The notes beneath the pieces were generated by a model, which worked only from the letters and a program-made list of their open reading frames with translations, was not told where the DNA came from and ran no database searches. Shown here in pieces: positions 10,010 to 48,732 of a stretch of 64,000 nucleotides of DNA. The stretch covers positions 66,047 to 130,046 of the forward strand of contig NZWR01000005.1 of assembly GCA_002698305.1 (NCBI GenBank), given 5' to 3'. Source of the stretch: Candidatus Campbellbacteria bacterium (GTDB lineage: Bacteria; Patescibacteriota; Minisyncoccia; Phycocordibacterales; UBA1006). Position 1 is the first letter of the stretch, and each line of letters begins with the position of its first letter. The position numbers and the translations under genes were made by a program.

Positions 10010-10609
10010 CTAAACCCCCTGTAATATGTATGATTGAAGTTTATCAAGATAGCGTTTAGTTTTTGCTGAGTAATATATTACCTGCCTATCTTCTATTCCA
10101 TAAGCTTTTAATTCTTTTTTAATCGCACTCATTCCTTTTTGATTGACTTTATCAATTTTATTAACGAGTATAACCAGATTCTTTTCATGCTGATTAAGCA
10201 GCTTCATATACTCCTTATCAAGCTCTGTGGGCCCTGCCTTTGGATCAATAATAAGACATATAAGCGCTGTATCTGCCTCAGGATGAGTTATGTACCATCT
10301 AATCAAACCATCAAGCTCATCGCGTTGTTTTTTTGAGAGCTTGGCATATCCATAGCCCGGTAGATCAACTGCATAGAAACATTGATTGTCTTGTGTTGTT
10401 ACATCGAAAAAATTAATCTGCTGAGTTTTTCCTGGTGTTCTACCTACTTTAACAAGGCTATTTCTTTCAAGTACAGCATTCAAAGTACTAGATTTTCCGA
10501 CGTTAGAACGCCCGATAAAGGCAATCTGCGGTGTTCCATCATAGAGAATTGCTTCTTCTCCTACAACACCTTTAACAAAGGTTGCTTTTTTTATGTGGGG
10601 TTTATTCAT
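10010..10609 (-). CDS. engB: Ribosome biogenesis GTPase YsxC/EngB
   Basis: G1 GRSNVGKSS, G3 DLPGYG and G4 NKID. 199 aa. Confidence 0.85.
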   Translation of the reverse strand: MNKPHIKKATFVKGVVGEEAILYDGTPQIAFIGRSNVGKSSTLNAVLERNSLVKVGRTPGKTQQINFFDVTTQDNQCFYAVDLPGYGYAKLSKKQRDELDGLIRWYITHPEADTALICLIIDPKAGPTELDKEYMKLLNQHEKNLVILVNKIDKVNQKGMSAIKKELKAYGIEDRQVIYYSAKTKRYLDKLQSYILQGV

Positions 10610-22313: not shown

Positions 22314-23294
22314 CTAGAGGCCTACTTTCTCTCGTACTTCTTTCATCTTTTCTCTTCCGATAGCTTGAATTTTCGTTCTCCCTTCATCGAGAATTTGTCT
22401 CACAATACCTGGATTATCTTCATAATACTTTCTTTTTGCCCTCATTGGTGTAATAAATGCCAGATAATTTTTAAGAAGCATTTTTTTTGAATCACCGTAC
22501 CCAAGACCACCATCTTCATACCCTTTTTTAATCTCAGAAAGCTCTGGTTCAGGAGTTATTAATCTGTGAAGGGCAAAGACATTACATTCATCTGGGTTCT
22601 TTGGCTCTTCAGGTAGTTTACTATCAGTAACAATACCCATGATTGCTTTTTTAATTTCTGCATCAGTGCCAAACAATGGAATAGTATTTCCATATGATTT
22701 AGACATTTTTTGTCCGTCTGTTCCTGGGACGGTTTGTGTTGACTCTACAACATGTTCTTCTGGTTCACTAAAGGTGTTTCCATAGGTGTTATTGAATTTA
22801 CGTGCTATTTCTCGCGCCATCTCAACATGCTGAATCTGGTCTTTACCAACAGGAACTATTTGACTGTTGGGTAGTAAAATATCTGCAGCCATAAGAACTG
22901 GATAATTGAAAAGCCCTACTGTCGCCTCAATCCCTCTTTCTGATTTATCCTTAAACGCATGAGCCCTTTCAAGCCATGGTACGGTTACGAGGCAATTAAA
23001 CATCCACGTAAGCTCGGTAAGCTCAGGAATATCAGATTGACGATACAGTGTAACTTTTTCAGGGTCAAGACCGATCGCAAGGTAATCAAGGATAAGATTG
23101 TGAATATTTTCTTTAAGAGTTTTTTTGTCTTGGACTGTTGTCATTGCGTGATACTCAGCAACAAAAACATGCAGATTAAATTCATCCTGCATTTCTACAA
23201 ACTGCTTCATGGCACCAAAATAATTACCGATATGTGGTGTACCTGTTGGCTGAATTCCTGAAAGAGCTATTTTTTTGTTATTTTCCTTCATCAT
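22314..23294 (-). CDS. trpS: Tryptophan--tRNA ligase
   Basis: SGIQPTGTPHIGNYFG (HIGH) and DGQKMSKSYGN (KMSKS). Start is taken at MMKENNKK (track ORF extends to 23360, into the upstream gene). Confidence 0.9.
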   Translation of the reverse strand: MMKENNKKIALSGIQPTGTPHIGNYFGAMKQFVEMQDEFNLHVFVAEYHAMTTVQDKKTLKENIHNLILDYLAIGLDPEKVTLYRQSDIPELTELTWMFNCLVTVPWLERAHAFKDKSERGIEATVGLFNYPVLMAADILLPNSQIVPVGKDQIQHVEMAREIARKFNNTYGNTFSEPEEHVVESTQTVPGTDGQKMSKSYGNTIPLFGTDAEIKKAIMGIVTDSKLPEEPKNPDECNVFALHRLITPEPELSEIKKGYEDGGLGYGDSKKMLLKNYLAFITPMRAKRKYYEDNPGIVRQILDEGRTKIQAIGREKMKEVREKVGL

Positions 23295-24153
23295 TGTTAT
23301 TTTTCTGAATGTTATACACAACACGTGTTTGATACGGAATTTCGATTTTATGTTGCTCAAAAGCTTTTTTGAGCCGTTTTCGCATCTCCCCAGCTACAAG
23401 ATACTGCTGTTTTGGATATACCTTACCTAAAATGCGTGCTTTGATTGCGTTATCTGAGAAATCATCAATTCGCAGAAAATGTGGAGCTTCAATAATATGA
23501 TGATTAAATTCAGGGTCATCATATAGTTCCTGCCCTACAGAATCAATAACCTCTTTCAGATGTTCTACTTTGGTGTTATAGCCAACATCAACAATGATAT
23601 CTACCATTGAATAATCCATTGATTTATTTGATGCGACTTTTATTTCACCGTTTGGAATATAGTGAACAGTTCCGTTTAGTTGCCGTAGCTTTGTAACACG
23701 TAAGGTCATTCCCTCAACCGTTCCATAGTGTTCACCAACCTGCACCACGTCCCCAATTCTGAACTGATTTTCAGCTATAATAAAAAGACCGTTGATAATA
23801 TCTTTTACAAGTGATTGTGAACCAAAACCAAGCGCTACTCCTAAAATCCCAGCCCCAGTTAACAGTGGCGCAATAGGGACCCCAAGAGAATCAAGAAGTA
23901 CCAAGAATGCAGCAATCCAAATAAGAATCCCAAAGAAATTTTGTGAGATTTTTATTAGCGTATCCTCTCTTTTTTTCTCTTCTTCTGGTGAAATAAATGA
24001 GCCGCGTGGGATCATTCTGCGTACAATCCGCGTGATGATTGAGTTCATAAAATGCGACACTACCCACGTTACTATAAAAACCAAGAGAACAATCAACGCA
24101 TTCTCAACTAACCACAGTTCAACTGTGGTTATTATGTTTGTTAAACTTTCCAT
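23278..24153 (-). CDS. Mechanosensitive ion channel, MscS family
   Basis: Three TM helices followed by FRIGDVVQVGEHYGTVEGMTLRVTKLR, the MscS beta-domain signature. Confidence 0.85.
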   Translation of the reverse strand: MESLTNIITTVELWLVENALIVLLVFIVTWVVSHFMNSIITRIVRRMIPRGSFISPEEEKKREDTLIKISQNFFGILIWIAAFLVLLDSLGVPIAPLLTGAGILGVALGFGSQSLVKDIINGLFIIAENQFRIGDVVQVGEHYGTVEGMTLRVTKLRQLNGTVHYIPNGEIKVASNKSMDYSMVDIIVDVGYNTKVEHLKEVIDSVGQELYDDPEFNHHIIEAPHFLRIDDFSDNAIKARILGKVYPKQQYLVAGEMRKRLKKAFEQHKIEIPYQTRVVYNIQKNNNDEGK

Positions 24154-24187
24154 AGCCTAAATTGTAACATATTCACGATGAGCAATC

Positions 24188-24955
24188 CTATTGTTGTTGC
24201 CGCTTCCACTCATACATAGCAATTGCTGCAGCTACTGATACATTGAGAGACTCAATAGTATGCTCCATAGGAATAGAAACTATGAAATCAGCGTTATCGC
24301 GAACTTTTTCAGACACCCCCTTCCCTTCAGATCCTACAACAAGCACGGTTGCTGTATCAAATGTATGATTCCAAAGAGAAAGTGGCTTTTTCGCGTGTTC
24401 GTCCATATCAATTGCGGTAACCCAAAACCGTGCCTCCTTAAGTTTGCTAATAGCTTGGTTAATATTAGAAACACGTACTACCGGAACATGTATCAATGCA
24501 CCTGCTGATGTTTTATACACAGTCCCGTTAATAGGTGCTTGTCTGTCTTTTGAGACAATAACACCAGCAACCCCAAGCGCTGCTGCACTGCGCAGAATAG
24601 CCCCAAAATTGTGAGTATCTTCAATATGATCAAGAACAAGAACACATGGATTGCTTTCAGTATCAAGTTGATCAAACCACTTATCAAAATCAACATAATC
24701 TGCCTGCTTTAAAAGAGCGATGACCCCTTGATCGTTAACGTCACCGACGTACTCTTCTATTTTCGCCTTGGTCACTGGGTTAACAGGAATTTTATGATCT
24801 TTAGCATAGGCTTTAAGTTCCTTAAAGTCATTTTCGTATTTTGCCATCGTATTTGATACGAATACGCGCATGACATTATCTGGATTCCGCATAAGTTGTT
24901 CTTCAACTGGCTTTTTACCAAAAATATAAAAATGAGATGTTTTTTTTCGTTTCAT
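24188..24955 (-). CDS. rlmB: SpoU/TrmH-class 23S rRNA 2'-O-ribose methyltransferase (RlmB-like)
   Basis: N-terminal L30e-like substrate-binding domain plus SPOUT motifs LDHIEDTHNFGAILRSA, VVGSEGKGVS and ESLNVSVAAAIAMYE. Confidence 0.8.
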   Translation of the reverse strand: MKRKKTSHFYIFGKKPVEEQLMRNPDNVMRVFVSNTMAKYENDFKELKAYAKDHKIPVNPVTKAKIEEYVGDVNDQGVIALLKQADYVDFDKWFDQLDTESNPCVLVLDHIEDTHNFGAILRSAAALGVAGVIVSKDRQAPINGTVYKTSAGALIHVPVVRVSNINQAISKLKEARFWVTAIDMDEHAKKPLSLWNHTFDTATVLVVGSEGKGVSEKVRDNADFIVSIPMEHTIESLNVSVAAAIAMYEWKRQQQ

Positions 24956-25008
24956 GGTATGTAGTGTATATGATTTTCTTGTTTTTGGTATAGGAAGCTA
25001 TTAAATAC

Positions 25009-25038
25009 AAAAAAACAATACTCAAGGTATTGTTTTTT
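25009..25038. terminator. Hairpin with flanking A/T runs (native terminator downstream of the tRNA-Ala site)
   Basis: aaaaaacaatac-tcaag-gtattgtttttt. Confidence 0.45.
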
Positions 25039-25039
25039 G

Positions 25040-25090
25040 CGTTTCGAGTGGACCTGACAGGACTCGAACCTGCCACCTCGTCAGTGCAAG
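25040..25090 (-). repeat. att site copy 1: orphan 3' half of tRNA-Ala (51-bp direct repeat)
   Basis: Identical at 51/51 positions to 28220..28270 (period 3180 bp). Corresponds to tRNA positions 32-73 plus 9 nt of trailer. No matching 5' half follows. Confidence 0.9.
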
Positions 25091-25117
25091 GTTTGTCTAG
25101 AGGCTTATTTGGCTCTC

Positions 25118-25140
25118 AAACCTTATTTTATAAGGGTTTT
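25118..25140. repeat. Hairpin motif, inverted copy of the 28191..28218 hairpin
   Basis: The reverse complement of aaaccttattttataagggtttt is AAACCCTTATAAAATAAGGTTT. This matches AAACCCTTATAAAATAAGGGTTT at 28194..28216 except for one missing G. Confidence 0.5.
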
Positions 25141-25315
25141 GGAAAATTCTGAGGTATCTATTTGCCTTATTTTTTACTAGCCCGTCAGGAACCACTTTTC
25201 TCTTGGTATTACAACATTCAATACAGGTTAAATCTGATTAAATATCGACATCATAATTATATCATATTGTCTTCATCTACATTGTAGCTTGATTTAGTAA
25301 CCAGAAGATACTGTC

Positions 25316-25344
25316 AATAAAAAGACCTGCATTTCTGCAGATCT
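25316..25344 (-). terminator. Intrinsic terminator of the int-ncRNA-RT unit
   Basis: Minus strand reads AGATCTGCA-GAAA-TGCAGGTCT (9-bp stem with one G:U) followed by TTTTTATT. Lies 7 nt after the RT stop. Confidence 0.75.
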
Positions 25345-25350
25345 TAGATT

Positions 25351-26250
25351 TCACTTAATTTTTGTTTTAAATTCTTGATAAAGCTCTAGAACTTTTTGCT
25401 CAGTTCTATTGAGCTTCCTTCCTTTCGATACAGATAAGAACAATCCCATCTTCCCATGAATTATTTGTGGGCTAATATTAGTTTTCTCTTTAAGTACAAG
25501 ATTTAGTAAACCTCTAATATGAGATAAATAGTGTCTTGGTGTAAATATCACATAAGAGCTACTAGTTTTTCTTAATCCTATACCATTTATTTCTATAGCT
25601 TTTTTATGTAAATCACCAAGATGTGTCTTCTTAATGTTTATCTGGAACTCACCCTCCCTTACGATATTTAAGAGTTTCTTCCTCTTTTTTCTACCAATAG
25701 GAAATTCAGAAGAGAATGTTAAGTCATCTAAGTAACGAGAGTAGGTTATGGAATGCATGTCACAATACTTTCTTAACGATTCATCAATTTTTTTTTCGCA
25801 ATAAATATTAAAGAGTAGAGGAGAAAGTGGTGCTCCTACAACAAGCCCTCCATCTTCACTCATACAATATCGTAGAAAAAATTGCTCTATCATTTCCTCT
25901 TCAATGATTTCTATAAAATACTCTCGAGTAGCTTCTATGAGTAAATCCAATTTAACATTCCCATAAGCGTTAGAAATATCTGTCATAAACCAATATCGTG
26001 GATAAAACGGTTTATGAGATGACTTTGTTTGACGCTTGTGACGCATTAGGTTTCTTTTAGGTGAATTCCCTGGCAAACCACCAGCAGCACTTGGTAAAAT
26101 AATTTCTTGTTTTTTAAACCAGTTCAAAATTTCGTAATGTATTTCTTTCATGGGTTCATTTGGCACCCATATTTTTCTTTTCTTAGTCTGACCACTAATG
26201 TTATTAACATCACTGATATAAACCTTCTGAAATGTGGGTGTTGAATCCAT
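25351..26250 (-). CDS. Reverse transcriptase, compact retron/UG-like (RT domain only, 299 aa)
   Basis: RT motifs in order: KRKIWVPNEPMKEIHYEIL (RT1), LPGNSPKRNLMRH (NAxxH-like, RT2), WFMTDISNAYGNV (RT3), GLVVGAPLSPLLFNIYCEKKID (RT4), YSRYLDDLTFSS (RT5, YxDD), INIKKTHL (RT6) and IEINGIGLRK (position of the retron VTG motif). No maturase, endonuclease or other appended domain. Confidence 0.85.
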   Translation of the reverse strand: MDSTPTFQKVYISDVNNISGQTKKRKIWVPNEPMKEIHYEILNWFKKQEIILPSAAGGLPGNSPKRNLMRHKRQTKSSHKPFYPRYWFMTDISNAYGNVKLDLLIEATREYFIEIIEEEMIEQFFLRYCMSEDGGLVVGAPLSPLLFNIYCEKKIDESLRKYCDMHSITYSRYLDDLTFSSEFPIGRKKRKKLLNIVREGEFQINIKKTHLGDLHKKAIEINGIGLRKTSSSYVIFTPRHYLSHIRGLLNLVLKEKTNISPQIIHGKMGLFLSVSKGRKLNRTEQKVLELYQEFKTKIK

Positions 26251-26303
26251 TTTATATAGTTTTAGTTTTTTAAATTAAAACATATATTAATTTATAAGTA
26301 AAT

Positions 26304-26328
26304 AAGCCCACCATGTTCTGGTGGGCTT
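26304..26328 (-). terminator. GC-rich hairpin between the ncRNA region and the RT start (attenuator/terminator or structural element)
   Basis: Minus strand reads AAGCCCACCA-GAACA-TGGTGGGCTT (10-bp perfect stem) followed by ATTTACTT. The U-tract is weak. Confidence 0.35.
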
Positions 26329-26339
26329 TGATTCAGTGA

Positions 26340-26555
26340 GGAAGGTCTGAAGGACGAGTAAGATTCTGAGATGAGGTCGTTTATTATCTCTAATAAGAAA
26401 GAAAAAAGAAAAACGTACTCCTTTTCATAAAAGGTTTCCTTAAGAAAAACCTTATTTTGTCACATGGGTGGCAAAATGATCTCATACCATAACTTATAAA
26501 GCTGGCATTGTGTAGGTAGGAAATAGGGCTCCTCTGCCTTTGTTTCAAACCTTCC
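26340..26555 (-). ncRNA. Candidate RT-associated structured ncRNA (msr-msd-like template RNA)
   Basis: Minus-strand GGAAGGTTTGAA (26555..26544) pairs with TTCAGACCTTCC (26351..26340): 12 bp with one G:U, enclosing about 190 nt. Internal hairpins: ATTTTGCCAC-CCAT-GTGACAAAAT (26477..26454), AAGGTTT...AAACCTT / CCTTTT-ATG-AAAAGG (26453..26420). A 5' hairpin GTCCGA-TTC-TCGGAC lies at 26573..26559. The region is directly downstream of a consensus promoter and upstream of the RT. No folding or expression data. Confidence 0.4.
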
Positions 26556-26600
26556 TTTGTCCGAGAATCGGACGGTTTATTTTCATTTGGGTTCATTATG

Positions 26601-26629
26601 ATTATAACTACTTTCAGTGTTATATGCAA
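26601..26629 (-). promoter_or_regulatory. Sigma-70-type promoter reading toward the ncRNA region and RT
   Basis: Minus strand: TTGCAT (26629..26624), 17-nt spacer, TATAAT (26606..26601). Lies 10 nt downstream of the integrase stop. Confidence 0.5.
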
Positions 26630-26638
26630 TTAATAATT

Positions 26639-27571
26639 TTAAAATGAAAGCTTATCAATATACACCCGCGCATTCTCAGAGCCAATAGATCTCACATACC
26701 GATCCGTCATCGTCACACTGCTGTGCCCAAGTGCTGACTTAATACTCACAATATCTGCATTGTTTTGTGCGAGAGAGGTAGCGAAGGTGTGGCGCAAGCT
26801 ATGAGTAGAAAAAGAAACTCCAGAAAGTGCTTTATACTTTTCTACCCAGGCTTTAAGTCCGTGAGTAGTGAGCCCAGTGTCTTGTTTACTTGAGATAAAT
26901 AGATACGCTGCTTTAGATTTTCGTTTACACAGTAACTTGAAATACGCTCTTAGGGAGAGTGTTAAGAGTGGGTTCATCGGAATATGTCGCCCTCTTCTTG
27001 ATTTAGATGACTGGGCTTTGATAAAAAGGAGCCGCTGGTCGAAATCTATATCAAAGGTTCGAAGGCCAAGTAGTTCCCCTCTTCGTATACCGGTATAGAT
27101 CAGAGTGTAGAAGAGAGCGATATTACGTGCTCGCAAAAAATCATTCTGTGGGTTAGCTAGTGAGATGGTAGCGATTAATGACTCTATTTGCTTTTTAGAG
27201 AGTGCTTTAACGTCACTGTAGTGTGGCTGCTGAGGCTTGGGTACCTTGTTGTAGAGTGTGCCAGGCGTGAGGTATCCTTGATGCTCTAGCCACTTAAAGA
27301 AGGCGTTTAGTTTTGAATGGTAGGTGTAGATGGTTGATCGCTTCACTTCCCTGCTTTCTTCCTGTGCTCTTCGGTGAATACGTTTATGGAACTCGACGAT
27401 GATGCTTGGTGACAGATGGTCTAGTGACTGTACCTCCGGCATTGTTTTGAGAAAGTTCTTCAGTACATCTCGATAGCTTCTGAGGGTTTCTGATTGTAAG
27501 CATCGAGCGAACTGAGCTTCTTGTAAATAGACGTAGCAGTAGTAATTAATTTGGTTTGATGTGTTATTCAT
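26639..27571 (-). CDS. int: Tyrosine recombinase / phage-type integrase
   Basis: N-terminal SAM-like core-binding domain. Catalytic region TGIRRGELLGL (Arg I), HSLRHTFATSL (HxxR) and LGHSSVTMTDRYV (His, Tyr nucleophile). Confidence 0.9.
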   Translation of the reverse strand: MNNTSNQINYYCYVYLQEAQFARCLQSETLRSYRDVLKNFLKTMPEVQSLDHLSPSIIVEFHKRIHRRAQEESREVKRSTIYTYHSKLNAFFKWLEHQGYLTPGTLYNKVPKPQQPHYSDVKALSKKQIESLIATISLANPQNDFLRARNIALFYTLIYTGIRRGELLGLRTFDIDFDQRLLFIKAQSSKSRRGRHIPMNPLLTLSLRAYFKLLCKRKSKAAYLFISSKQDTGLTTHGLKAWVEKYKALSGVSFSTHSLRHTFATSLAQNNADIVSIKSALGHSSVTMTDRYVRSIGSENARVYIDKLSF

Positions 27572-27657
27572 ACCTCTGTAGTGTATGAATAGTTTAGTGG
27601 AAATGAATGAGGGGTTATAGTATCAAACATAGATACAATTTTTGATATACTAGTTTT

Positions 27658-28146
27658 ATGCTGAACTTATTAAAACAAATAGCAGATAAATTTTATATTA
27701 ATCTTTTGAACAAGAATGATTCGGATAGTTTTAAATCTGTCATAAAAGAGTCAACAACAGGTGACATCGCAGGAAGAGATTTATATAAAACTTCCAATAC
27801 AGAAAAACTCTTATCTAATATTGAAAAGAAAATATTGAAAATACTATATCGCGAGTATCAAGATCGGGGTAAAAATGGATTTAAAATACGTAATACCCAC
27901 AGTGAATTAGAAATTGATGATGGTTTTGACTTAACTTGTGTAAATGATAGTGAATACATAAAAACAGAAGGTGATTTTTATAAAATGACACCCCATGGTA
28001 TTAGATATATGGATAATCTTACACCAATAGATTTATCACAAATAATGCTACCGAAGGAGGAGGGAGAAAGGGAATTTATTATGCGGCAACAAAGACAACG
28101 ATTTGAGCAGAACAGAGCGAATTTCAAAAAGAACTCTAGTAGATAA
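27658..28146 (+). CDS. Hypothetical protein (orphan cargo of the element, divergent from int)
   Basis: 162-aa ORF preceded by an extended -10-like TGATATACT. A central KILKILYREYQDRGKNGFKI segment is faintly wHTH-like, and the tail is basic. No family recognised. Confidence 0.5.
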   Translation: MLNLLKQIADKFYINLLNKNDSDSFKSVIKESTTGDIAGRDLYKTSNTEKLLSNIEKKILKILYREYQDRGKNGFKIRNTHSELEIDDGFDLTCVNDSEYIKTEGDFYKMTPHGIRYMDNLTPIDLSQIMLPKEEGEREFIMRQQRQRFEQNRANFKKNSSR

Positions 28147-28190
28147 AAGACGTGGTGCAAAAAATTGATACTTTCCAAGCTTGAGCAAGC

Positions 28191-28218
28191 AAAAAACCCT
28201 TATAAAATAAGGGTTTTT
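28191..28218. terminator. Hairpin with A/T flanks abutting the att core (element-borne terminator for tRNA-Ala and the orphan ORF)
   Basis: aaaaaacccttat-aaa-ataagggttttt. Ends 2 nt before the 51-bp core. Confidence 0.55.
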
Positions 28219-28219
28219 A

Positions 28220-28270
28220 CGTTTCGAGTGGACCTGACAGGACTCGAACCTGCCACCTCGTCAGTGCAAG
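28220..28270 (-). repeat. att site copy 2 (51-bp direct repeat inside the intact tRNA-Ala)
   Basis: Identical to 25040..25090. Confidence 0.9.
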
Positions 28271-28302
28271 TGACGCGCTCTAGCCAGATGAGCTACAGGC
28301 CC
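28229..28302 (-). tRNA. tRNA-Ala(UGC)
   Basis: Reverse complement is GGGCCTGTAGCTCATCTGGCTAGAGCGCGTCACTTGCACTGACGAGGTGGCAGGTTCGAGTCCTGTCAGGTCCA. G3:U70 alanine identity pair, anticodon loop CTTGCAC, discriminator A73, no encoded CCA. Confidence 0.9.
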
Positions 28303-28444
28303 CAATACAGCAAAAACTGCTGTGTTGTAAATTAGTGAAGGCGCAAGCCTTCCAAAGAACAACTGGAAAAGATTATATAGGCTAGTATGAAATATGCAAG
28401 TATCTTGTTGTACGAAGAGTAAGAATGGAATAGTCAATCCTTTG

Positions 28445-29497
28445 TTAGTTGCTCAGCAACTTACCTAATGAACGGGTCTTTTTTATTTTGAGGAAAAATA
28501 CATTAAGTATTGCAAGGAGTGGAATAGCGAGGATCATCCCTGTTACTCCCCATATAGTGTTTCCAACTATAACGGCAAGAATAACGAAAAAGGGATTTAA
28601 CTGTACTTCATGACCTATAACATATGGTTGTAGAATATAGCTCTCGATAAACTGCGTTAAGCTAAAAGAAATAATTATCCCTACAAGCACAAAAGTTTCT
28701 CCATTACTTAGATACCCAAGTACAACAGCGAGAAGAAAAGCAATAATATTACCGATATAGGGAATAAGCGTAAGAAAACTTGCAAGAACGGCAATAAGTA
28801 TAAAACTATCTACCCCAGATATACCGAGCCCAATACTATATATGACAATAAGAAGTCCGATGAGTTTAGTTTTCCCGTACAGATATGCGATAGTTGTGTT
28901 CATGCTCTCTGAAAGTGTTGAACGCAATGTTTTTTCTTTTGAGTTTTTCACTAGTGAAAGTAAGAACTTCTTGAAAGAGCTACGATTAAGAAGGATGAAG
29001 AACAGGTAGATGAATGTCAAAAGATAGCTTCCAATTGCTCCAAAAATGATTTGCGTAAGATATGTTGCGTTATTCGTGTTAAGGTACTCTTCTTGAATTT
29101 CATTGATTGAAGTCGTTTTAAATACGTTATCAAGCGTCTTGCTCTCAATAGGTGTATTTTGTGTAAGATAGGTTTTAAATTCTGATAGCTTTTCTTCTGT
29201 TGTTTCAGATATCGTACTCCATTTTTCAGTAATGTTGTTTACTTGCAGTGTAACAACCCCTAGGAATACAAGTGAAATGATGAATACACCTAAAGTCGGT
29301 AGAATTGCTGATACCGCTCTACTGTGCGTAATTTTCTGAAGGTAACGTGCAAACGGTAATAGTGCAAGAGCAAGTAATAAAGCAATGATAAGAGGCGCTA
29401 GTAAGCTTTTACCAACAATCAGCCCATAGATTATTAACGTAAGTGAAGCCAAAACAGCGAACATATTAATCAAAACATTTTGATGCAGGTGAAACAT
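28445..29497 (-). CDS. AI-2E family transporter (PerM/UPF0118)
   Basis: 350 aa with about 8 TM helices. C-terminal LNPFFVILAVIVGNTIWGVTGMILAIPLLAIL is typical of the family. Confidence 0.8.
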   Translation of the reverse strand: MFHLHQNVLINMFAVLASLTLIIYGLIVGKSLLAPLIIALLLALALLPFARYLQKITHSRAVSAILPTLGVFIISLVFLGVVTLQVNNITEKWSTISETTEEKLSEFKTYLTQNTPIESKTLDNVFKTTSINEIQEEYLNTNNATYLTQIIFGAIGSYLLTFIYLFFILLNRSSFKKFLLSLVKNSKEKTLRSTLSESMNTTIAYLYGKTKLIGLLIVIYSIGLGISGVDSFILIAVLASFLTLIPYIGNIIAFLLAVVLGYLSNGETFVLVGIIISFSLTQFIESYILQPYVIGHEVQLNPFFVILAVIVGNTIWGVTGMILAIPLLAILNVFFLKIKKTRSLGKLLSN

Positions 29498-29570
29498 ATT
29501 TTTTATTATACGTGAAATAAATAAGAGTAAAATAGAGGTGCTCTGAAGGTTTTTAGGGTATGCTTATGGT

Positions 29571-30161
29571 ATGGAATTTTCACAAACAGAACTCCTTTCA
29601 TTTTTTACTGAAGTAAGCCCGTTCGTGCGTAATTTAGTAATCGGGCTTTTTGCCTTTGGTGAAGGGCTTCCTGTTATCGGTTCTTTTTTACCTGGTGGTA
29701 CCGTTGCTATTTTGATTGGGGCTCTTTCTGAAAAAGGAATCATGAACTCATGGCATGCTGTTCATATTATTGCCTTGGGAAGTATGCTTGGTGACCTGAT
29801 TGGATTTTACGCAGGTCGCAATCTAAACAAGGTATCGTGGTTCAAAAGGTTTGTGCACGGAGAAAATCACAGAAAAAAATGGGATCTTTTTGATCGTCAT
29901 ACGGCTATCGTTATTATTCTAGGAAAGCTTCTTCCTGTTATTCGATCCACCCCCGCTCTCTTTGCCGGTGCGCGTCGAATGAATATTTTCCGCTACATTT
30001 TTTATGTATTAATAGGCTCATACCTGTGGGCAATTGCTGGAGTATTCGCTGGTAAATATATAGCTCAAGTTGCTGGAGATTATATCATCCCGGTTATCTT
30101 TGCTATTGTAGTTGTGTCAATCCTTGTTGCTATCGTTTCAAGATTTAAAAAAAGTTCTTAG
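29571..30161 (+). CDS. DedA/VTT-domain membrane protein
   Basis: FGEGLPVIGSFLPGGTVAILIGAL and GKLLPVIRSTPALFAG are DedA signatures. Confidence 0.8.
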   Translation: MEFSQTELLSFFTEVSPFVRNLVIGLFAFGEGLPVIGSFLPGGTVAILIGALSEKGIMNSWHAVHIIALGSMLGDLIGFYAGRNLNKVSWFKRFVHGENHRKKWDLFDRHTAIVIILGKLLPVIRSTPALFAGARRMNIFRYIFYVLIGSYLWAIAGVFAGKYIAQVAGDYIIPVIFAIVVVSILVAIVSRFKKSS

Positions 30162-31384
30162 CTCTTTAAGAACTTTTTGCTTCGCTTTCGTTTATGCTGT
30201 TTTAGTGCAAATCGATGAGATTCAGCGTTAAGAGCAACAATTTCTTTTGCATATCTACGGCTAATCTTGTGTTGCCCCAGCAGCTCTTTAGCTTTATGTT
30301 TAGTATCCTTTACGACAGCAATAACGGGAATACGTATGTCATGGACTCGAATGGCTCGTTCAACGGCCCGTTTCTGTGCGACACCTCCATCAACGACAAT
30401 AACATTAGGGTATGCCCACTCTTTATGTGTAAATCTTCTTGAAACAGTCTCAAAAAGTGCGGCTGTATCATTTGATGTATTTACGCTGTGAATATTGAAT
30501 ACTCTATGTTCTGATGAATCAATCTCGACACCATTATAAACGCACATAACACCGACCATATGCTCTCCTTCCATGTGCGCGATATCATAGGCTTCCATGC
30601 GAAATTCATCTAGATATGACGCATGATCAAAATTATGTTTCATTAATGCAATATCATGAATATGATCAAGTGAGTAAATTTGTTTTTTTATAACTTGAGC
30701 TCTTTCAAATTCAAGTTCTTTAGCATGACTCATCATGTCCTTTTTTAACTGCCGAATAAGGTCTTTTTTCTGACCTTTAAAAAATTGAGCGATATACTCT
30801 ACATTCTTTTGGTAGATATTTTTTGAGTCTCTGTCATGCGCATCAGGAGCAAGCCCAAGCTGGTTATAGAATTCAATATTATGTTTTTGTGTTGTTTTTT
30901 TACCCAAAAAAGGAAATATCTTTCGTATTATTCCTAATGCGGTTGTCAGCTGCTCTCTACTTGGAAATGGACCAAAAACATGTTGTAAGCTCTTATCTTT
31001 TTTTCCAAGAATAATATTTAAACTGCGCTGTCGCACAGTAAAAATACGAGGTAATTCTTCGTTTGTTATAACTACATAGTTATAGCTCTTGTTATCTTTC
31101 TCCTTGCTGTTGTATAGTGGCTGGTATTGTTTTATAAGGTATGACTCTAACAGAAGTGCCTCTAGGGCTGAATCAGTTTCTCTCCACTCCATTTGATCAG
31201 CATCGTCAACCATTTTTACAATTAATGGACCTCGGGTTTCCATAAGCTTACTTTGAAAGTAACTTGCAGTTCTTTGTGCAAGATTTGTTGCTTTTCCTAT
31301 ATACAAAACATCATTTCCTTTCTTAAAAAAATATACTCCAGGAGATTTCGGTAAGGGTATTTTTTTGTACTGAGTAAGATTCAT
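30158..31384 (-). CDS. uvrC: UvrC-like excinuclease subunit, short form (GIY-YIG + UVR + RNase H-like endonuclease domain, no C-terminal HhH2)
   Basis: PGVYFFKKGNDVLYIGKATNLAQR...YQPLYN (GIY-YIG), ELEFERAQVIKKQIYSL (UVR), IVVDGGVAQKRAVERAI...IPVIAVVK (endonuclease domain). Ends at 408 aa, versus about 600 aa for canonical UvrC. Confidence 0.75.
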   Translation of the reverse strand: MNLTQYKKIPLPKSPGVYFFKKGNDVLYIGKATNLAQRTASYFQSKLMETRGPLIVKMVDDADQMEWRETDSALEALLLESYLIKQYQPLYNSKEKDNKSYNYVVITNEELPRIFTVRQRSLNIILGKKDKSLQHVFGPFPSREQLTTALGIIRKIFPFLGKKTTQKHNIEFYNQLGLAPDAHDRDSKNIYQKNVEYIAQFFKGQKKDLIRQLKKDMMSHAKELEFERAQVIKKQIYSLDHIHDIALMKHNFDHASYLDEFRMEAYDIAHMEGEHMVGVMCVYNGVEIDSSEHRVFNIHSVNTSNDTAALFETVSRRFTHKEWAYPNVIVVDGGVAQKRAVERAIRVHDIRIPVIAVVKDTKHKAKELLGQHKISRRYAKEIVALNAESHRFALKQHKRKRSKKFLKS

Positions 31385-47805: not shown

Positions 47806-48732
47806 ATGTATGATCTTATAATTATTGGCGCAGGACCAGCAGGAACAGCTGCTGGTGTATATGCTGCGCGTAAACGTCTCAAAACCCTTTTAATAACTGA
47901 AGAATTTGGTGGTCAATCCGTTGTGTCTGACGTTATCTATAACTGGATCGGTGAGCCGGAAATCAAAGGAAGCGAGCTCGCTGAATCTTTTAAAAAACAT
48001 CTTGAATACTATGCTGACGATGATATCTTAACCCTTAAACCAAGACTTCGAGCAAATACAGTGGAAAAGAATGATGATGGCACATTTACCGTTATTGATT
48101 CTAACGACGAAACATACCAAACAAAAACAGTGTTTATCGCCACAGGATCAGTACGACGCAAACTTCCCGCTGCTGGTGCAGACGAACTTGAACACAAGGG
48201 TCTCACGTACTGTGCAAGCTGTGATGGGCCTCTTTTTACAGGAATGGATGTGATTGTCGTTGGAGGTGGAAATGCAGGTTTTGAATCTGCTGCGCAGCTT
48301 CTTGCGTATACCAAGTCAGTCACCCTTCTTCAACGTGGGGATGAATATAAGGCCGACCAAATTACCGTCGATAAGGTGTTAGCTCATCCGAACATGACTG
48401 GAATTTTGAATGCCAGTACCGTTGAGGTTCACGGCGATACATTTGTGAGCGGTCTTACTTATCTTGATCTTTCAACAAATGAGAAAAAGAAGCTCGACGC
48501 TCAAGGAATCTTTGTTGAAATTGGACAGGTTCCTAATAGCCACATCGTCCAGGAGCTTGTTGAACTTAATGACTTCAAACAAATCGTTGCTGACCCATAC
48601 ACCCAAAGAACATCAATTGTTGGTGTTTGGGCTGCGGGTGACGTAACAGACGTAAAGTATCACCAAAACAATATTTCTGCAGGTGATGCTGTAAAAGCCT
48701 TAGAAGATATTTATAAATACCTTCACACATAA
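47806..48732 (+). CDS. trxB: Thioredoxin-disulfide reductase
   Basis: FAD motif IIIGAGPAGTAAGVYAAR, redox-active CASCDG and NADPH motif VVGGGNAGFESA. 308 aa. Confidence 0.8.
   Translation: MYDLIIIGAGPAGTAAGVYAARKRLKTLLITEEFGGQSVVSDVIYNWIGEPEIKGSELAESFKKHLEYYADDDILTLKPRLRANTVEKNDDGTFTVIDSNDETYQTKTVFIATGSVRRKLPAAGADELEHKGLTYCASCDGPLFTGMDVIVVGGGNAGFESAAQLLAYTKSVTLLQRGDEYKADQITVDKVLAHPNMTGILNASTVEVHGDTFVSGLTYLDLSTNEKKKLDAQGIFVEIGQVPNSHIVQELVELNDFKQIVADPYTQRTSIVGVWAAGDVTDVKYHQNNISAGDAVKALEDIYKYLHT

What the first reader, a model, noticed from the sequence alone, without database searches (positions are those of the whole stretch)
25040..28270. A 3.2-kb integrative element in tRNA-Ala(UGC), bounded by a perfect 51-bp direct repeat, whose main cargo is a reverse transcriptase
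Seen directly: 25040..25090 and 28220..28270 are identical at 51/51 positions, and identity resumes through a T5 run after one mismatch. The right copy is the 3' part of an intact minus-strand tRNA-Ala with G3:U70. It runs from anticodon-loop position 32 to discriminator A73, plus 9 nt of trailer. The left copy is an orphan 3' half with no 5' half. Between them lie a tyrosine recombinase (R / HxxR / Y residues present), a 299-aa RT (YLDD), a ~390-bp non-coding spacer with its own consensus promoter, and one orphan ORF. int, spacer and RT are co-directional and end at a strong terminator (25316..25344). This is the textbook attL/attR footprint of integration into a tRNA 3' half. The element is far smaller than typical genomic islands or retron-carrying prophages. 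It sits between ordinary housekeeping genes (rlmB and an AI-2E permease) in a streamlined genome.
Basis: partly seen in the sequence, partly recalled or inferred. Interest (0 to 1): 0.9.

Follow-up and report, generated by a model that had tools for sequence, protein, structure and literature searches.

The report
Mini tRNA-Ala island carrying a solo retron
A 3.2-kb mobile element sits in a tRNA-Ala gene of a marine Campbellbacteria (CPR) genome, and its only real cargo is a retron-type reverse transcriptase with a structured non-coding RNA, a pair that recurs in many CPR bacteria with no partner effector gene.

Summary
A perfect 51-bp repeat (57 bp with one mismatch) brackets 3.1 kb next to an intact tRNA-Ala(UGC). 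Inside are a complete tyrosine integrase, a 299-aa reverse transcriptase (RT), a 388-bp spacer and one ORFan.

Three integrases from other contigs, 48-94% identical to this one, each sit directly upstream of the same tRNA-Ala 3' half. Two of these share the element's end arms. In them, the slot between int and the distal arm is empty or holds an unrelated 421-aa gene. This is therefore a family of tiny tRNA-Ala integrative elements with a swappable cargo slot.

The cargo is retron-type. RT sequence and predicted fold match solved retron RTs best. The spacer is a structured ncRNA with its own promoter and terminator. It belongs to an RNA family not in Rfam. That family lies beside RT homologues in 42 of 85 loci, with 49 of 50 matches on the RT strand.

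Across 86 distinct RT loci there is no integrase of this family, no conserved neighbour and no effector.

Not shown: excision, an empty site, cDNA synthesis or biological function.

Verdict: a new variant of known kinds, of moderate to high interest.

The parts
25009..25038 (-). Original host terminator of tRNA-Ala (hairpin ACAATAC..GTATTGT plus a T run). It now lies downstream of the orphan tRNA half.
   Evidence: Read; coordinates. It is outside the repeat, on the rlmB side.
25034..25090 (-). Left repeat copy: orphan 3' half of tRNA-Ala (anticodon-loop C32 to A73 plus trailer). This is the att site distal to int.
   Evidence: 57 nt, 56/57; 51/51 core. No tRNA is called here.
25091..25290 (-). 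Distal arm of the element, about 200 nt. It contains a TGnTATAAT-like box (25252-25266), an inverted copy of the tRNA 3' end (25180-25195) and a palindrome (25118-25140).
   Evidence: Both arm copies on L092 align with it, and those two copies are 87% identical to each other. Coordinates. Palindrome = I2/D6. Arm plus tRNA half folds with z = -3.9.
25316..25345 (-). Terminator-like hairpin ending the RT gene.
   Evidence: 10-bp stem, T-rich tail; coordinates.
25351..26250 (-). Retron-clade reverse transcriptase, 299 aa. Motifs: NLMRH 67-71, YLDD 173-176, INGIG 221-225.
   Evidence: AF2 pLDDT 93.4. The top 18 PDB fold hits are all retron RTs.
26296..26594 (-). Structured ncRNA, about 300 nt, retron msr/msd-like. 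Sub-parts:
- P1 hairpin 26559-26573
- outer long-range stem 26544-26555 with 26340-26351
- D1 AUGAG within 26478-26486
- H2 26454-26477
- H3 26431-26453
- polypyrimidine tract 26392-26415
- D2 motif (CGACCUCAUCUCAG) 26366-26379
- terminator hairpin 26300-26328
   Evidence: Fold z = -5.4. 70% nt identity and compensatory changes against L011. Family model R2, built without this sequence, places its best hit in the 64-kb window at 26365-26482(-), E = 0.003. Coordinates.
26601..26629 (-). Promoter of the ncRNA: TTGCAT, 17 nt, TATAAT.
   Evidence: Read; coordinates. It falls below the scan tool's -35 criterion. A similar promoter-like TTGCTT…TATAAT lies upstream in L011.
26639..27571 (-). Tyrosine integrase, 310 aa, Xer-like fold, with R163 K190 H257 R260 H283 Y292.
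   Evidence: GC3 is 0.434 against a background of 0.286 +/- 0.036. Relatives 48-94% identical lie next to the same tRNA-Ala half.
27658..28146 (+). ORFan, 162 aa, divergent from int. It occupies the position where a regulator or excisionase would be expected. Function unknown.
   Evidence: No homologue other than itself among 5.8 billion proteins. No Pfam or NCBIfam hit. Only a faint PADLOC WH_III-A hit, E = 0.008. AF2 pLDDT 41.
28147..28219 (-). Int-proximal arm. It carries the element-borne replacement terminator for the tRNA (28191-28218) and a conserved GCACCACGT box (28150-28158).
   Evidence: Conserved in L092 downstream of its left core copy. Coordinates.
28214..28270 (-). Right repeat copy. 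It forms the 3' part of the intact tRNA.
28228..28302 (-). Intact tRNA-Ala(UGC) with G3:U70; no encoded CCA.

Best explanation
Positions 25040-28219 (3,180 bp counting one core copy) are a minimal site-specific integrative element.

Integration. The tyrosine integrase recombined a circular form (attP = proximal arm, 51-bp core, distal arm) with the 3' half of the host tRNA-Ala(UGC). This rebuilt an intact tRNA that now uses an element-borne terminator. The original 3' half and its terminator were left stranded next to rlmB. The structure is shown here. The recombination event itself is inferred.

Family. The element belongs to a family of tRNA-Ala-targeting integrases. Two members on another contig share its end arms. 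The slot between int and the distal arm is either empty or filled with unrelated genes. This is shown by comparison.

Cargo. In this element the slot holds a self-contained two-part module: a ~300-nt structured ncRNA with its own promoter and terminator, followed by a 299-aa retron-clade RT. The module belongs to a large family found mainly in CPR bacteria. In that family RT and ncRNA always travel together, with the RNA upstream or downstream and sometimes in tandem copies. No conserved protein partner accompanies them.

Inferred mechanism:
1. The RT binds the two conserved hairpins H2 and H3, which are msr-like.
2. It reverse-transcribes the adjacent msd-like segment: the polypyrimidine tract plus a variable hairpin. 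This segment is bracketed by the covarying D1/D2 stem, (C)UGAGG / CCUCAG, which corresponds to retron a1/a2.
3. The product is a small purine-rich cDNA.

The most likely role is an accessory, phage-defence-type function. Either an effector acts in trans or the cDNA itself is the effector. The RT plays no part in moving the element.
For: Element:
- Repeat and tRNA confirmed.
- Complete integrase catalytic set.
- Identical junctions in independent assemblies.
- Sister element on L092 with a 94%-identical Int, the same core at both ends and both arms conserved, but with cargo of an SDH-type protease and a 421-aa protein.
- The neighbouring L092 element (Int 48%) and the L181 element (Int 68%) go straight from int to arm to the same tRNA-Ala half.
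- The trailers after the core differ between hosts, which indicates separate insertions.
- Int GC3 is 4 sd above the window's genes, while the RT is host-like.

RT:
- The best PADLOC hits are retron RTs, E 1e-25 to 1e-22.
- The family profile hits solved retron RTs over nearly its full length: Ec83 3e-30, Ec86 4e-27. Group II introns reach 1e-9 and DRT2 5e-9.
- AF2 pLDDT is 93.4, and the top 18 PDB fold hits are all retron RTs.
- The retron hallmark residues H71 (NxxxH) and G223 (xxG) are invariant (PMC7736814).

ncRNA:
- Fold z = -5.4.
- 70% nt identity to L011, where the RT is only 59% identical at the protein level, with compensatory changes in three stems.
- A sequence-only profile finds the RNA in 42 of 86 loci on the RT strand, with no hit below E = 1e-3 on the reverse-complement control.
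- H2 and H3 are 90.6% paired against 70% in shuffles, and 14 of 15 pairs show compensatory change.
- Model R2, built without the window, places its top window hit exactly in the spacer, and 49 of 50 family hits are on the RT strand.
- D1/D2 covary in three variant types at a fixed distance from H2.

Solo status:
- No Int or ORFan homologue occurs near any of 85 other distinct RT loci.
- No conserved neighbour of 30 aa or more was found.
- Neighbours are mostly housekeeping genes.
Against: - No empty attB allele or circle junction was seen. All 14 contigs carrying the exact rlmB protein that extend upstream are occupied.
- No excisionase is recognisable.
- The retron motifs are variants: NVxRH instead of NAxxH, and ING instead of VTG.
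- All curated retron HMM scores are far below cut-off (79.7 against 235 bits).
- The priming G and any cDNA are untested.
- The window's ncRNA matches the family model only modestly (18.7 bits, E = 0.003).
- The window's D stem is only 5 bp, and L011 does not keep it in the same form.
- A terminator-like hairpin separates ncRNA from RT, unlike classical msr-msd-RT operons.
- No effector exists, although retrons are defined as three-part systems.
- The polypyrimidine tract is only moderately enriched: median 14 nt against 10 nt in random segments.
- Half of the family loci gave no RNA hit.
Confidence: 0.75

Rival explanations
1. The RT-ncRNA pair works like the two-component DRT systems (DRT2, DRT9) and not like a classical retron. 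On this view the RT copies the conserved polypyrimidine tract repeatedly, by slippage or template jumping, and makes long purine-rich DNA. That DNA is itself the toxic or antiviral agent, so no protein effector is needed.
For: - The architecture is strictly two-component across 86 distinct loci.
- A pyrimidine-rich tract sits at a fixed place in the RNA.
- DRT9 is an RT plus ncRNA only, with a universally conserved poly-U template (PMC12483538).
- The ncRNA is an independent transcription unit that can lie on either side of the RT.
Against: - The RT is clearly retron-clade and not UG/Abi. DRT2 reaches E = 5e-9 over about 100 residues only. The NCBIfam Drt2 score is 28.7 bits against a cut-off of 390. 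DRT2 and DRT9 rank below all retron and group II RTs in the fold search.
- The tract is mixed U/C, of variable sequence, and absent or short in some members.
- The layout of a stem bracketing two hairpins plus a variable hairpin is the canonical retron layout.
Confidence: 0.2
2. The element is a fixed, no longer mobile relic. It integrated once in an ancestor of this Campbellbacteria population and is now simply a resident locus.
For: - Every contig of this population that spans the site is occupied.
- No excisionase is recognisable.
- No copy of the core or of the Int is found in viral contigs.
Against: - The repeats are still 51/51 identical.
- The int ORF is intact with all catalytic residues.
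- A 94%-identical Int with the same arms sits in a different context with different cargo and a different trailer, which indicates recent movement of the backbone.
Confidence: 0.3
3. RT and integrase cooperate in mobility, as a DIRS-like retroelement would. On this view the element moves through an RNA copy that is reverse-transcribed and then inserted by the tyrosine recombinase.
For: int, ncRNA and RT are co-directional and adjacent within one tiny element.
Against: - No homologue of this integrase lies near the RT in any of the other 85 distinct RT loci.
- Sister elements with the same Int and att carry no RT.
- The RT has host-like composition and the Int does not.
- Terminators split the unit.
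Confidence: 0.02
4. The RT belongs to a diversity-generating retroelement (the commonest RT type in CPR) or to a degraded group II intron.
For: [quoted passage not shown] Group II RTs are the next-best structural matches.
Against: - There is no template/variable repeat pair in 23000-30500 apart from the att repeat.
- Rfam finds no intron or other known RNA family in 24000-29500.
- No maturase or endonuclease domain is present; the protein is RT-only.
- No DGR RT is named among the PDB sequence hits at E <= 0.01.
- The group II NCBIfam score is 30.9 bits against a cut-off of 300.
Confidence: 0.02

Closest known systems
tRNA-targeting integrative elements and genomic islets with a tyrosine integrase (the P4-like satellite and genomic-island paradigm; satellites with variable defence 'hotspots' are described in bioRxiv 10.1101/2021.01.21.427644)
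   Same: - Integration into the 3' half of a tRNA gene.
- Direct repeats equal to the att core.
- The tRNA is rebuilt by the element.
- The integrase sits at one end.
- A defined slot holds variable, partly defence-type cargo.
   Different: - It is only 3.2 kb, and the RT gene and its ncRNA are the only recognisable cargo beside the integrase and one ORFan.
- It has no replication, capsid-hijacking or regulatory genes, and no recognisable excisionase.
- The integrase is Xer-like (SAM_1 N-terminal domain) and compositionally foreign to its CPR host.
- Cargo-free versions exist.
Retrons (solved examples: Ec83 type I-B, Ec86 type II-A, Ec78, Eco2, Eco8)
   Same: - RT sequence and fold.
- The conserved H of NAxxH and G of VTG.
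- An adjacent structured ncRNA in which a stem (D1/D2, like a1/a2) brackets two conserved hairpins (msr-like) followed by a variable hairpin region (msd-like).
   Different: - There is no effector gene.
- Scores fall below all curated retron thresholds.
- The ncRNA has its own promoter and terminator. It can lie downstream of the RT or occur in tandem copies.
- Extra outer stems and a conserved pyrimidine tract are present.
- The host range is CPR.
- msDNA has not been demonstrated.
'Orphan' retrons without an associated protein (Mestre et al. 2020, PMC7736814)
   Same: A retron-type RT plus ncRNA with no linked effector. The authors leave open whether an effector acts in trans or the mechanism is different.
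   Different: Their cases are branches of otherwise effector-linked proteobacterial clades. Here a whole large clade is solo: 512 representatives of 50%-identity clusters at E <= 1e-30.
DRT9 and DRT2 (class 2 UG/Abi defence RTs)
   Same: A two-component RT plus structured ncRNA. DRT9 has a conserved pyrimidine (poly-U) template, and in these systems the cDNA acts as the effector.
   Different: The RT lineage is different (UG/Abi against retron). Those RTs are 400-500 aa with extra domains. DRT9 is protein-primed. No homology was detected between the ncRNAs.

Membership tests
tRNA-integrating tyrosine-recombinase element | Direct repeats that equal part of a tRNA gene, with one intact tRNA and one orphan partial copy. 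| tested here: met
tRNA-integrating tyrosine-recombinase element | Integrase with the catalytic R-K-H-R-H/W-Y set. | tested here: met
   R163, K190, H257, R260, H283 and Y292, by alignment to XerA (5hxy) and XerD (1a0p). Pfam Phage_integrase scores 105 bits.
tRNA-integrating tyrosine-recombinase element | Independent insertions of related elements at the same target. | tested here: met
   L092 (two tandem elements) and L181 have the same tRNA-Ala 3' half, with different trailers and cargo.
tRNA-integrating tyrosine-recombinase element | An empty attB allele in relatives, or an excised circle (attP junction). | tested here: inconclusive
   No unoccupied contig was found among 14 carrying the exact rlmB protein.
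Retron | RT of the retron clade with region X (NAxxH) and region Y (VTG). | tested here: met
   The best sequence and fold matches are solved retron RTs. The motifs are variants, NVxRH and (I/V)NG, but the most conserved residues, H71 and G223, are invariant (definition from PMC7736814).
Retron | Score above a curated retron RT model threshold. | tested here: not met
   NCBIfam retron_St85_RT scores 79.7 bits against a cut-off of 235, and Ec67 scores 43.7 against 450.
Retron | Adjacent ncRNA with inverted repeats (a1/a2) enclosing msr hairpins and an msd hairpin. | tested here: met
   H2 and H3 covary. The D1/D2 stem covaries. The variable hairpin region was seen by eye in the alignments. In the window itself D1/D2 is only 5 bp.
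Retron | Branching G, 2'-5' linkage and msDNA production. | not testable with these tools
   This needs expression and nucleic-acid analysis.
Retron | A cognate effector protein encoded with the RT and ncRNA (tripartite system). | tested here: not met
   No conserved neighbour of 30 aa or more was found across 86 loci. PADLOC and Pfam scans of neighbours find no retron effector.
DRT2/DRT9 (class 2 UG/Abi) | RT of the UG2 or UG28 lineage. | tested here: not met
   NCBIfam Drt2 scores 28.7 bits against a cut-off of 390. DRT2 and DRT9 rank below the retron and group II RTs.
DRT2/DRT9 (class 2 UG/Abi) | Two-component RT plus ncRNA with a conserved template tract. | tested here: inconclusive
   The two-component architecture is met. 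The pyrimidine tract is enriched but not universal. Its use as a template is untested.
Diversity-generating retroelement | A TR/VR repeat pair and an accessory Avd next to the RT. | tested here: not met
   There is no such repeat in 23000-30500. No Avd-like neighbour is present.
Group II intron | Intron RNA domains, and an RT with a maturase (X) domain. | tested here: not met
   Rfam at E <= 1 finds none. TIGR04416 scores 30.9 bits against a cut-off of 300.

The most novel reading that the evidence does not exclude
This large clade of ~300-aa retron-lineage RTs, found mainly in CPR bacteria, together with its own ncRNA family, is a complete effector-less immune or conflict system. The cDNA templated by the conserved pyrimidine-rich segment would itself be the active agent. 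That would be a retron-lineage counterpart of DRT2/DRT9, compact enough (1.3 kb) for ultra-small genomes. The window would then show it being moved as the sole cargo of a 3-kb tRNA-Ala integrative element with a plug-in cargo slot.
Probability: 0.25. Interest if true: 0.8.

Novelty: new variant of a known kind. Interest (0 to 1): 0.6.

Why it matters
There are three reasons.

1. It gives a clean natural example of how defence-type modules are shuttled between genomes. The same integrase, att site and arms occur with an empty slot, with an unrelated gene, or with a retron-type module. The whole element is only 3 kb.

2. It uncovers a large, uncharacterised retron-lineage family. The family has 512 representatives of 50%-identity clusters at E <= 1e-30. 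Its members come mostly from CPR bacteria. It has its own conserved ncRNA, which is not in Rfam, and no effector gene. This bears on the open question of whether 'orphan' retrons use effectors in trans or work differently.

3. The 1.3-kb RT plus ncRNA unit is small and self-contained. It may be useful as a cDNA-producing tool if it proves active.

The GenBank record annotates all three genes only as hypothetical proteins.

Tried and rejected
- **Assembly artefact.** Rejected. Identical junctions appear in independent assemblies.
- **Int-RT functional coupling.** Rejected. tblastn with the Int and the ORFan found nothing near the other 85 distinct RT loci.
- **Conserved effector.** All-against-all clustering of neighbouring ORFs, both >= 60 aa and >= 30 aa, found only antisense shadows of the RT gene and small subfamily clusters. 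A partial ATPase-Toprim_I-B hit in L015 turned out to be a P-loop match in an ABC-type ATPase. The 349-402-aa protein upstream of the RT in four loci has no PADLOC hit.
- **Small protein encoded in the spacer.** A 201-nt stop-free frame exists in the window and a 204-nt one in L011. However, L011 has no start codon, and the middle third is not conserved as protein because the indels shift the frame. Rejected.
- **Neo-like open concatemer test.** Uninformative, because thousands of sub-segments pass.
- **Model R1** (window plus L011 only). Too specific; it found only isolated H2 hairpins elsewhere.
- **RNAalifold on the MAFFT alignment of distant members.** It recovered only H2, so H3 was specified by hand.
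- **Empty site.** Not found.
- **Viral contigs.** No match for the att core or for the Int.
- **Phage records.** Only weak RT matches, below 31% identity.
- **ORFan.** No homologues, and the single-sequence AF2 model is unusable at pLDDT 41.
- **Literature.** No paper on retrons in CPR/Patescibacteria was found in the searchable library.
- **tRNA proximity of other family loci.** 12 of 86 have a tRNA within 1.5 kb. This is not clearly meaningful.

Full report
**1. Observation.**
The repeat is real. Positions 25034-25090 and 28214-28270 match at 56/57, with a perfect 51-bp core at 25040-25090 = 28220-28270 (sequence). ARAGORN finds tRNA-Ala(UGC) at 28228-28302 on the minus strand and nothing at the left copy. 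Rfam's tRNA model scores 61.5 bits, and G3:U70 is visible in that alignment. In tRNA sense the repeat begins at C32 of the anticodon loop and runs 9 nt beyond A73.

The RT is at 25351-26250(-): 299 aa, RVT_1, YLDD. The integrase is at 26639-27571(-): 310 aa, Phage_integrase plus SAM_1. The ORFan is at 27658-28146(+). The flanks are a SpoU/RlmB-type methylase and an AI-2E transporter. The hairpin at 25322-25345(-) is terminator-like.

The genome is a marine Candidatus Campbellbacteria MAG. All three genes are annotated 'hypothetical protein'.

**2. Not an artefact.**
The identical RT lies on 19 contigs from independent assemblies (ENA/TARA, JGI, Logan, NCBI). The places listed show the same gene order where the contig reaches that far. 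Both core copies are present wherever the contig is long enough.

**3. An integrative element with relatives.**
The integrase aligns to XerA and XerD with all catalytic residues: R163, K190, H257, R260, H283 and Y292. It falls below the curated Xer thresholds, so it is not a chromosome-dimer resolvase.

The key evidence is comparative.
- Contig L092 carries an integrase 94% identical to this one.
- The same tRNA-Ala core occurs twice there, 4,054 bp apart.
- Both ends of the window's element are conserved in L092. These are the ~200-nt distal arm (window 25091-25290) and the int-proximal arm with the replacement tRNA terminator (window 28147-28219).
- The L092 cargo is different: an SDH/ClpP-type protease, a 59-aa ORF and a 421-aa protein of no known family, with no RT.

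Immediately upstream in L092 lies a third relative (Int 48% identical). Its stop codon is followed 12 nt later by the same distal arm and tRNA half, so its cargo slot is empty. A fourth relative, L181 (Int 68%), also runs int, arm, then the same tRNA-Ala 3' half. The trailer after the core differs between these contigs, which points to separate insertions.

More distant integrase relatives flank NYN, DUF4238 and type IV restriction-like genes.

The integrase is compositionally foreign, with GC3 0.434 against 0.286 +/- 0.036 for 43 window ORFs. The RT is host-like at 0.263. Integrase relatives at 45-50% identity include marine Flavobacteriia.

No empty site was found. All 14 contigs carrying the exact rlmB protein that extend upstream are occupied. 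No viral contig carries the core or the Int. Mobility of the family is therefore well supported, but present-day mobility of this copy is not shown.

**4. The RT.**
- PADLOC's best hits are retron RTs: I-B 9e-25, III-A and II-A about 1e-23.
- A profile of 29 family members hits solved retron RTs over nearly its whole length: Ec83 3e-30 and Ec86 4e-27, followed by Ec78, Ec67 and Eco8. Group II RTs reach 1e-9 and DRT2 5e-9.
- The AlphaFold model is confident, with pLDDT 93.4 and pTM 0.88.
- Its 18 best PDB fold matches are all retron RTs, with TM 0.58-0.68.
- The two retron hallmarks defined by Mestre et al. (PMC7736814) appear as variants, NVxRH and (I/V)NG. The key H71 and G223 are invariant.
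- Curated retron models are not reached: 79.7 bits against a cut-off of 235.

It is therefore a distinct clade of the retron lineage. The clade is large. There are 512 representatives of 50%-identity clusters at E <= 1e-30. At least 150 reach E < 1e-72, and most of these are close to 300 aa. Most of the full-length relatives found in named genomes (L012-L045) are CPR genomes: Parcubacteria/Paceibacterota, Saccharibacteria and others.

**5. The spacer is the RT's RNA partner.**
On the minus strand the spacer has TTGCAT-17-TATAAT at 26629-26601. It folds far better than shuffles, z = -5.4. It ends in a terminator-like hairpin at 26328-26304, before the RT gene.

In L011 the RT is 59% identical and no integrase is present. 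There the spacer is 70% identical at the nucleotide level (nhmmer E = 2e-25). Compensatory changes occur in the long-range outer stem, in hairpin H3 and in the terminator. A 24-nt polypyrimidine tract is invariant.

Starting from other family members, an iterative sequence profile found a homologous RNA beside the RT in 42 of 86 distinct loci. All hits were on the RT strand. The reverse-complement control gave no hit below E = 1e-3.

Hairpins H2 and H3 covary strongly. Cells are 90.6% paired, against 70% in shuffles and about 50% when the partners are slid. Fourteen of 15 pairs show compensatory change.

A covariance model built from 12 members, excluding the window and L011, places its best hit in the whole 64-kb window at 26365-26482(-). 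The score is 18.7 bits and E = 0.003, and the match is full length. It hits L011 at the matching place. In the 85 family loci it gives 50 hits, 49 of them on the RT strand.

The RNA lies upstream of the RT in 29 loci, downstream in 10 and on both sides in 2. One further locus has only a minus-strand hit. Tandem copies occur in L029 (three), L014, L016, L019 and L026.

A stem D1/D2, (C)UGAGG 11-17 nt before H2 paired with CCUCAG(CG), brackets the core and covaries. Three variant types occur: CCUCAG/CUGAGG, CUUCAG/UUGAAG and UCUCAG/CUGAGA. A perfect complement is found in 31% of cases, against 5% in shuffles.

Between H3 and D2 lie a pyrimidine-rich tract and a variable, often GC-rich hairpin. 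The tract has a median length of 14 nt, against 10 nt in random segments.

The order D1, two conserved hairpins, variable hairpin, D2 is the canonical retron layout a1, msr, msd, a2. Rfam has no match.

**6. Solo module.**
None of the other 85 distinct RT loci has a homologue of this integrase or ORFan. No neighbour family is shared by more than a handful of loci, even among ORFs of 30 aa. Neighbours are mostly housekeeping genes, and no retron effector is present. RT plus ncRNA therefore appears to be the whole unit, and the integrase association is peculiar to this element.

**7. Mechanism.**
Shown: the att structure, the catalytic integrase, the element family with a cargo slot, the retron-clade RT and the conserved partner RNA.

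Inferred:
- Int-mediated attP x attB recombination in the tRNA-Ala 3' half.
- RT binding to H2 and H3.
- Reverse transcription of the D2-proximal segment into a small purine-rich cDNA.
- An accessory, defence-type role.

The lack of any effector leaves two options: an effector acting in trans, or the cDNA acting as effector as in DRT9/DRT2 (PMC12483538). I rate the classical retron-like reading above the DRT-like one because of the RT lineage and the RNA layout.

**8. Verdict.**
It is more interesting for its cargo than for the island itself. The island is a textbook kind in miniature. The cargo is a member of a large, unstudied, effector-less retron-lineage family with a new ncRNA. I classify it as a new variant of known kinds, with interest 0.6.

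Noticed in passing
window 25091-25290; L092 879-1106 and 4933-5160: The element's distal arm is 87% identical between two tandem elements on L092, although their integrases are only 48% identical. The arm carries a TGnTATAAT-like box aimed at the orphan tRNA half and an inverted copy of the tRNA 3' end (GTGGTTCCTGACGGGC). Arm plus tRNA half folds with z = -3.9. It could be integrase arm sites, a small RNA, or gene conversion between neighbours.
   Followed up: partly
window 25118-25140 and 28193-28215: Near-identical 23-nt palindromes (AAACC(C)TTAT..ATAAGGGTTT) sit just inside each end of the element. The right one doubles as the replacement terminator of the tRNA.
   Followed up: no
L092 1-11477: A tandem array of three integrase-bearing elements lies downstream of a tRNA-Ala site. 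The array includes Rep_O, HTH and ApeA-HEPN genes, and a tRNA-Met follows at 10178-10251. This looks like an insertion hotspot.
   Followed up: partly
L029 4832-5715; L014 5445-5911; L016 118-487; L019 5421-5910; L026 4662-5782: Two or three tandem copies of the RT-associated ncRNA core lie upstream of a single RT gene. This is unusual for retrons and suggests several templates per enzyme.
   Followed up: no
L017, L020, L022, L025, L123, L128, L130, L132, L134, L135, L142: In these family members the ncRNA lies 110-190 nt downstream of the RT stop codon instead of upstream, with its own promoter-like sequence. In L017 a partial hit also overlaps the RT start.
   Followed up: partly
window 26639-27571: The integrase GC3 (0.434) is 4 sd above the window's genes. 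Its relatives at 45-50% identity include marine Flavobacteriia (Polaribacter 'XerC'). This hints at cross-phylum transfer of the mobile backbone into a CPR genome.
   Followed up: partly
window 26392-26595 (minus strand); L011 5390-5594: A stop-free sense frame of about 200 nt runs across the ncRNA in both sequences. L011 has no start codon, and the middle third is not conserved as protein. It is probably a side effect of the pyrimidine tract and the stems.
   Followed up: yes
window 27658-28146: The 162-aa ORFan divergent from int has no homologue anywhere apart from itself. Its only hit is a faint winged-helix match (PADLOC WH_III-A, E = 0.008). A regulator or excisionase role is possible but unsupported.
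   Followed up: partly
window 48416-48463 (minus strand): A weak R2 hit (12 bits, E = 0.14) consists only of a GAACCUCAACGG motif. It is most likely chance.
   Followed up: no
window 29275-29341: An Rfam SNORD65 match (28.8 bits, below the gathering score of 41) lies inside the AI-2E transporter gene. It is a chance match to a eukaryotic snoRNA model.
   Followed up: no
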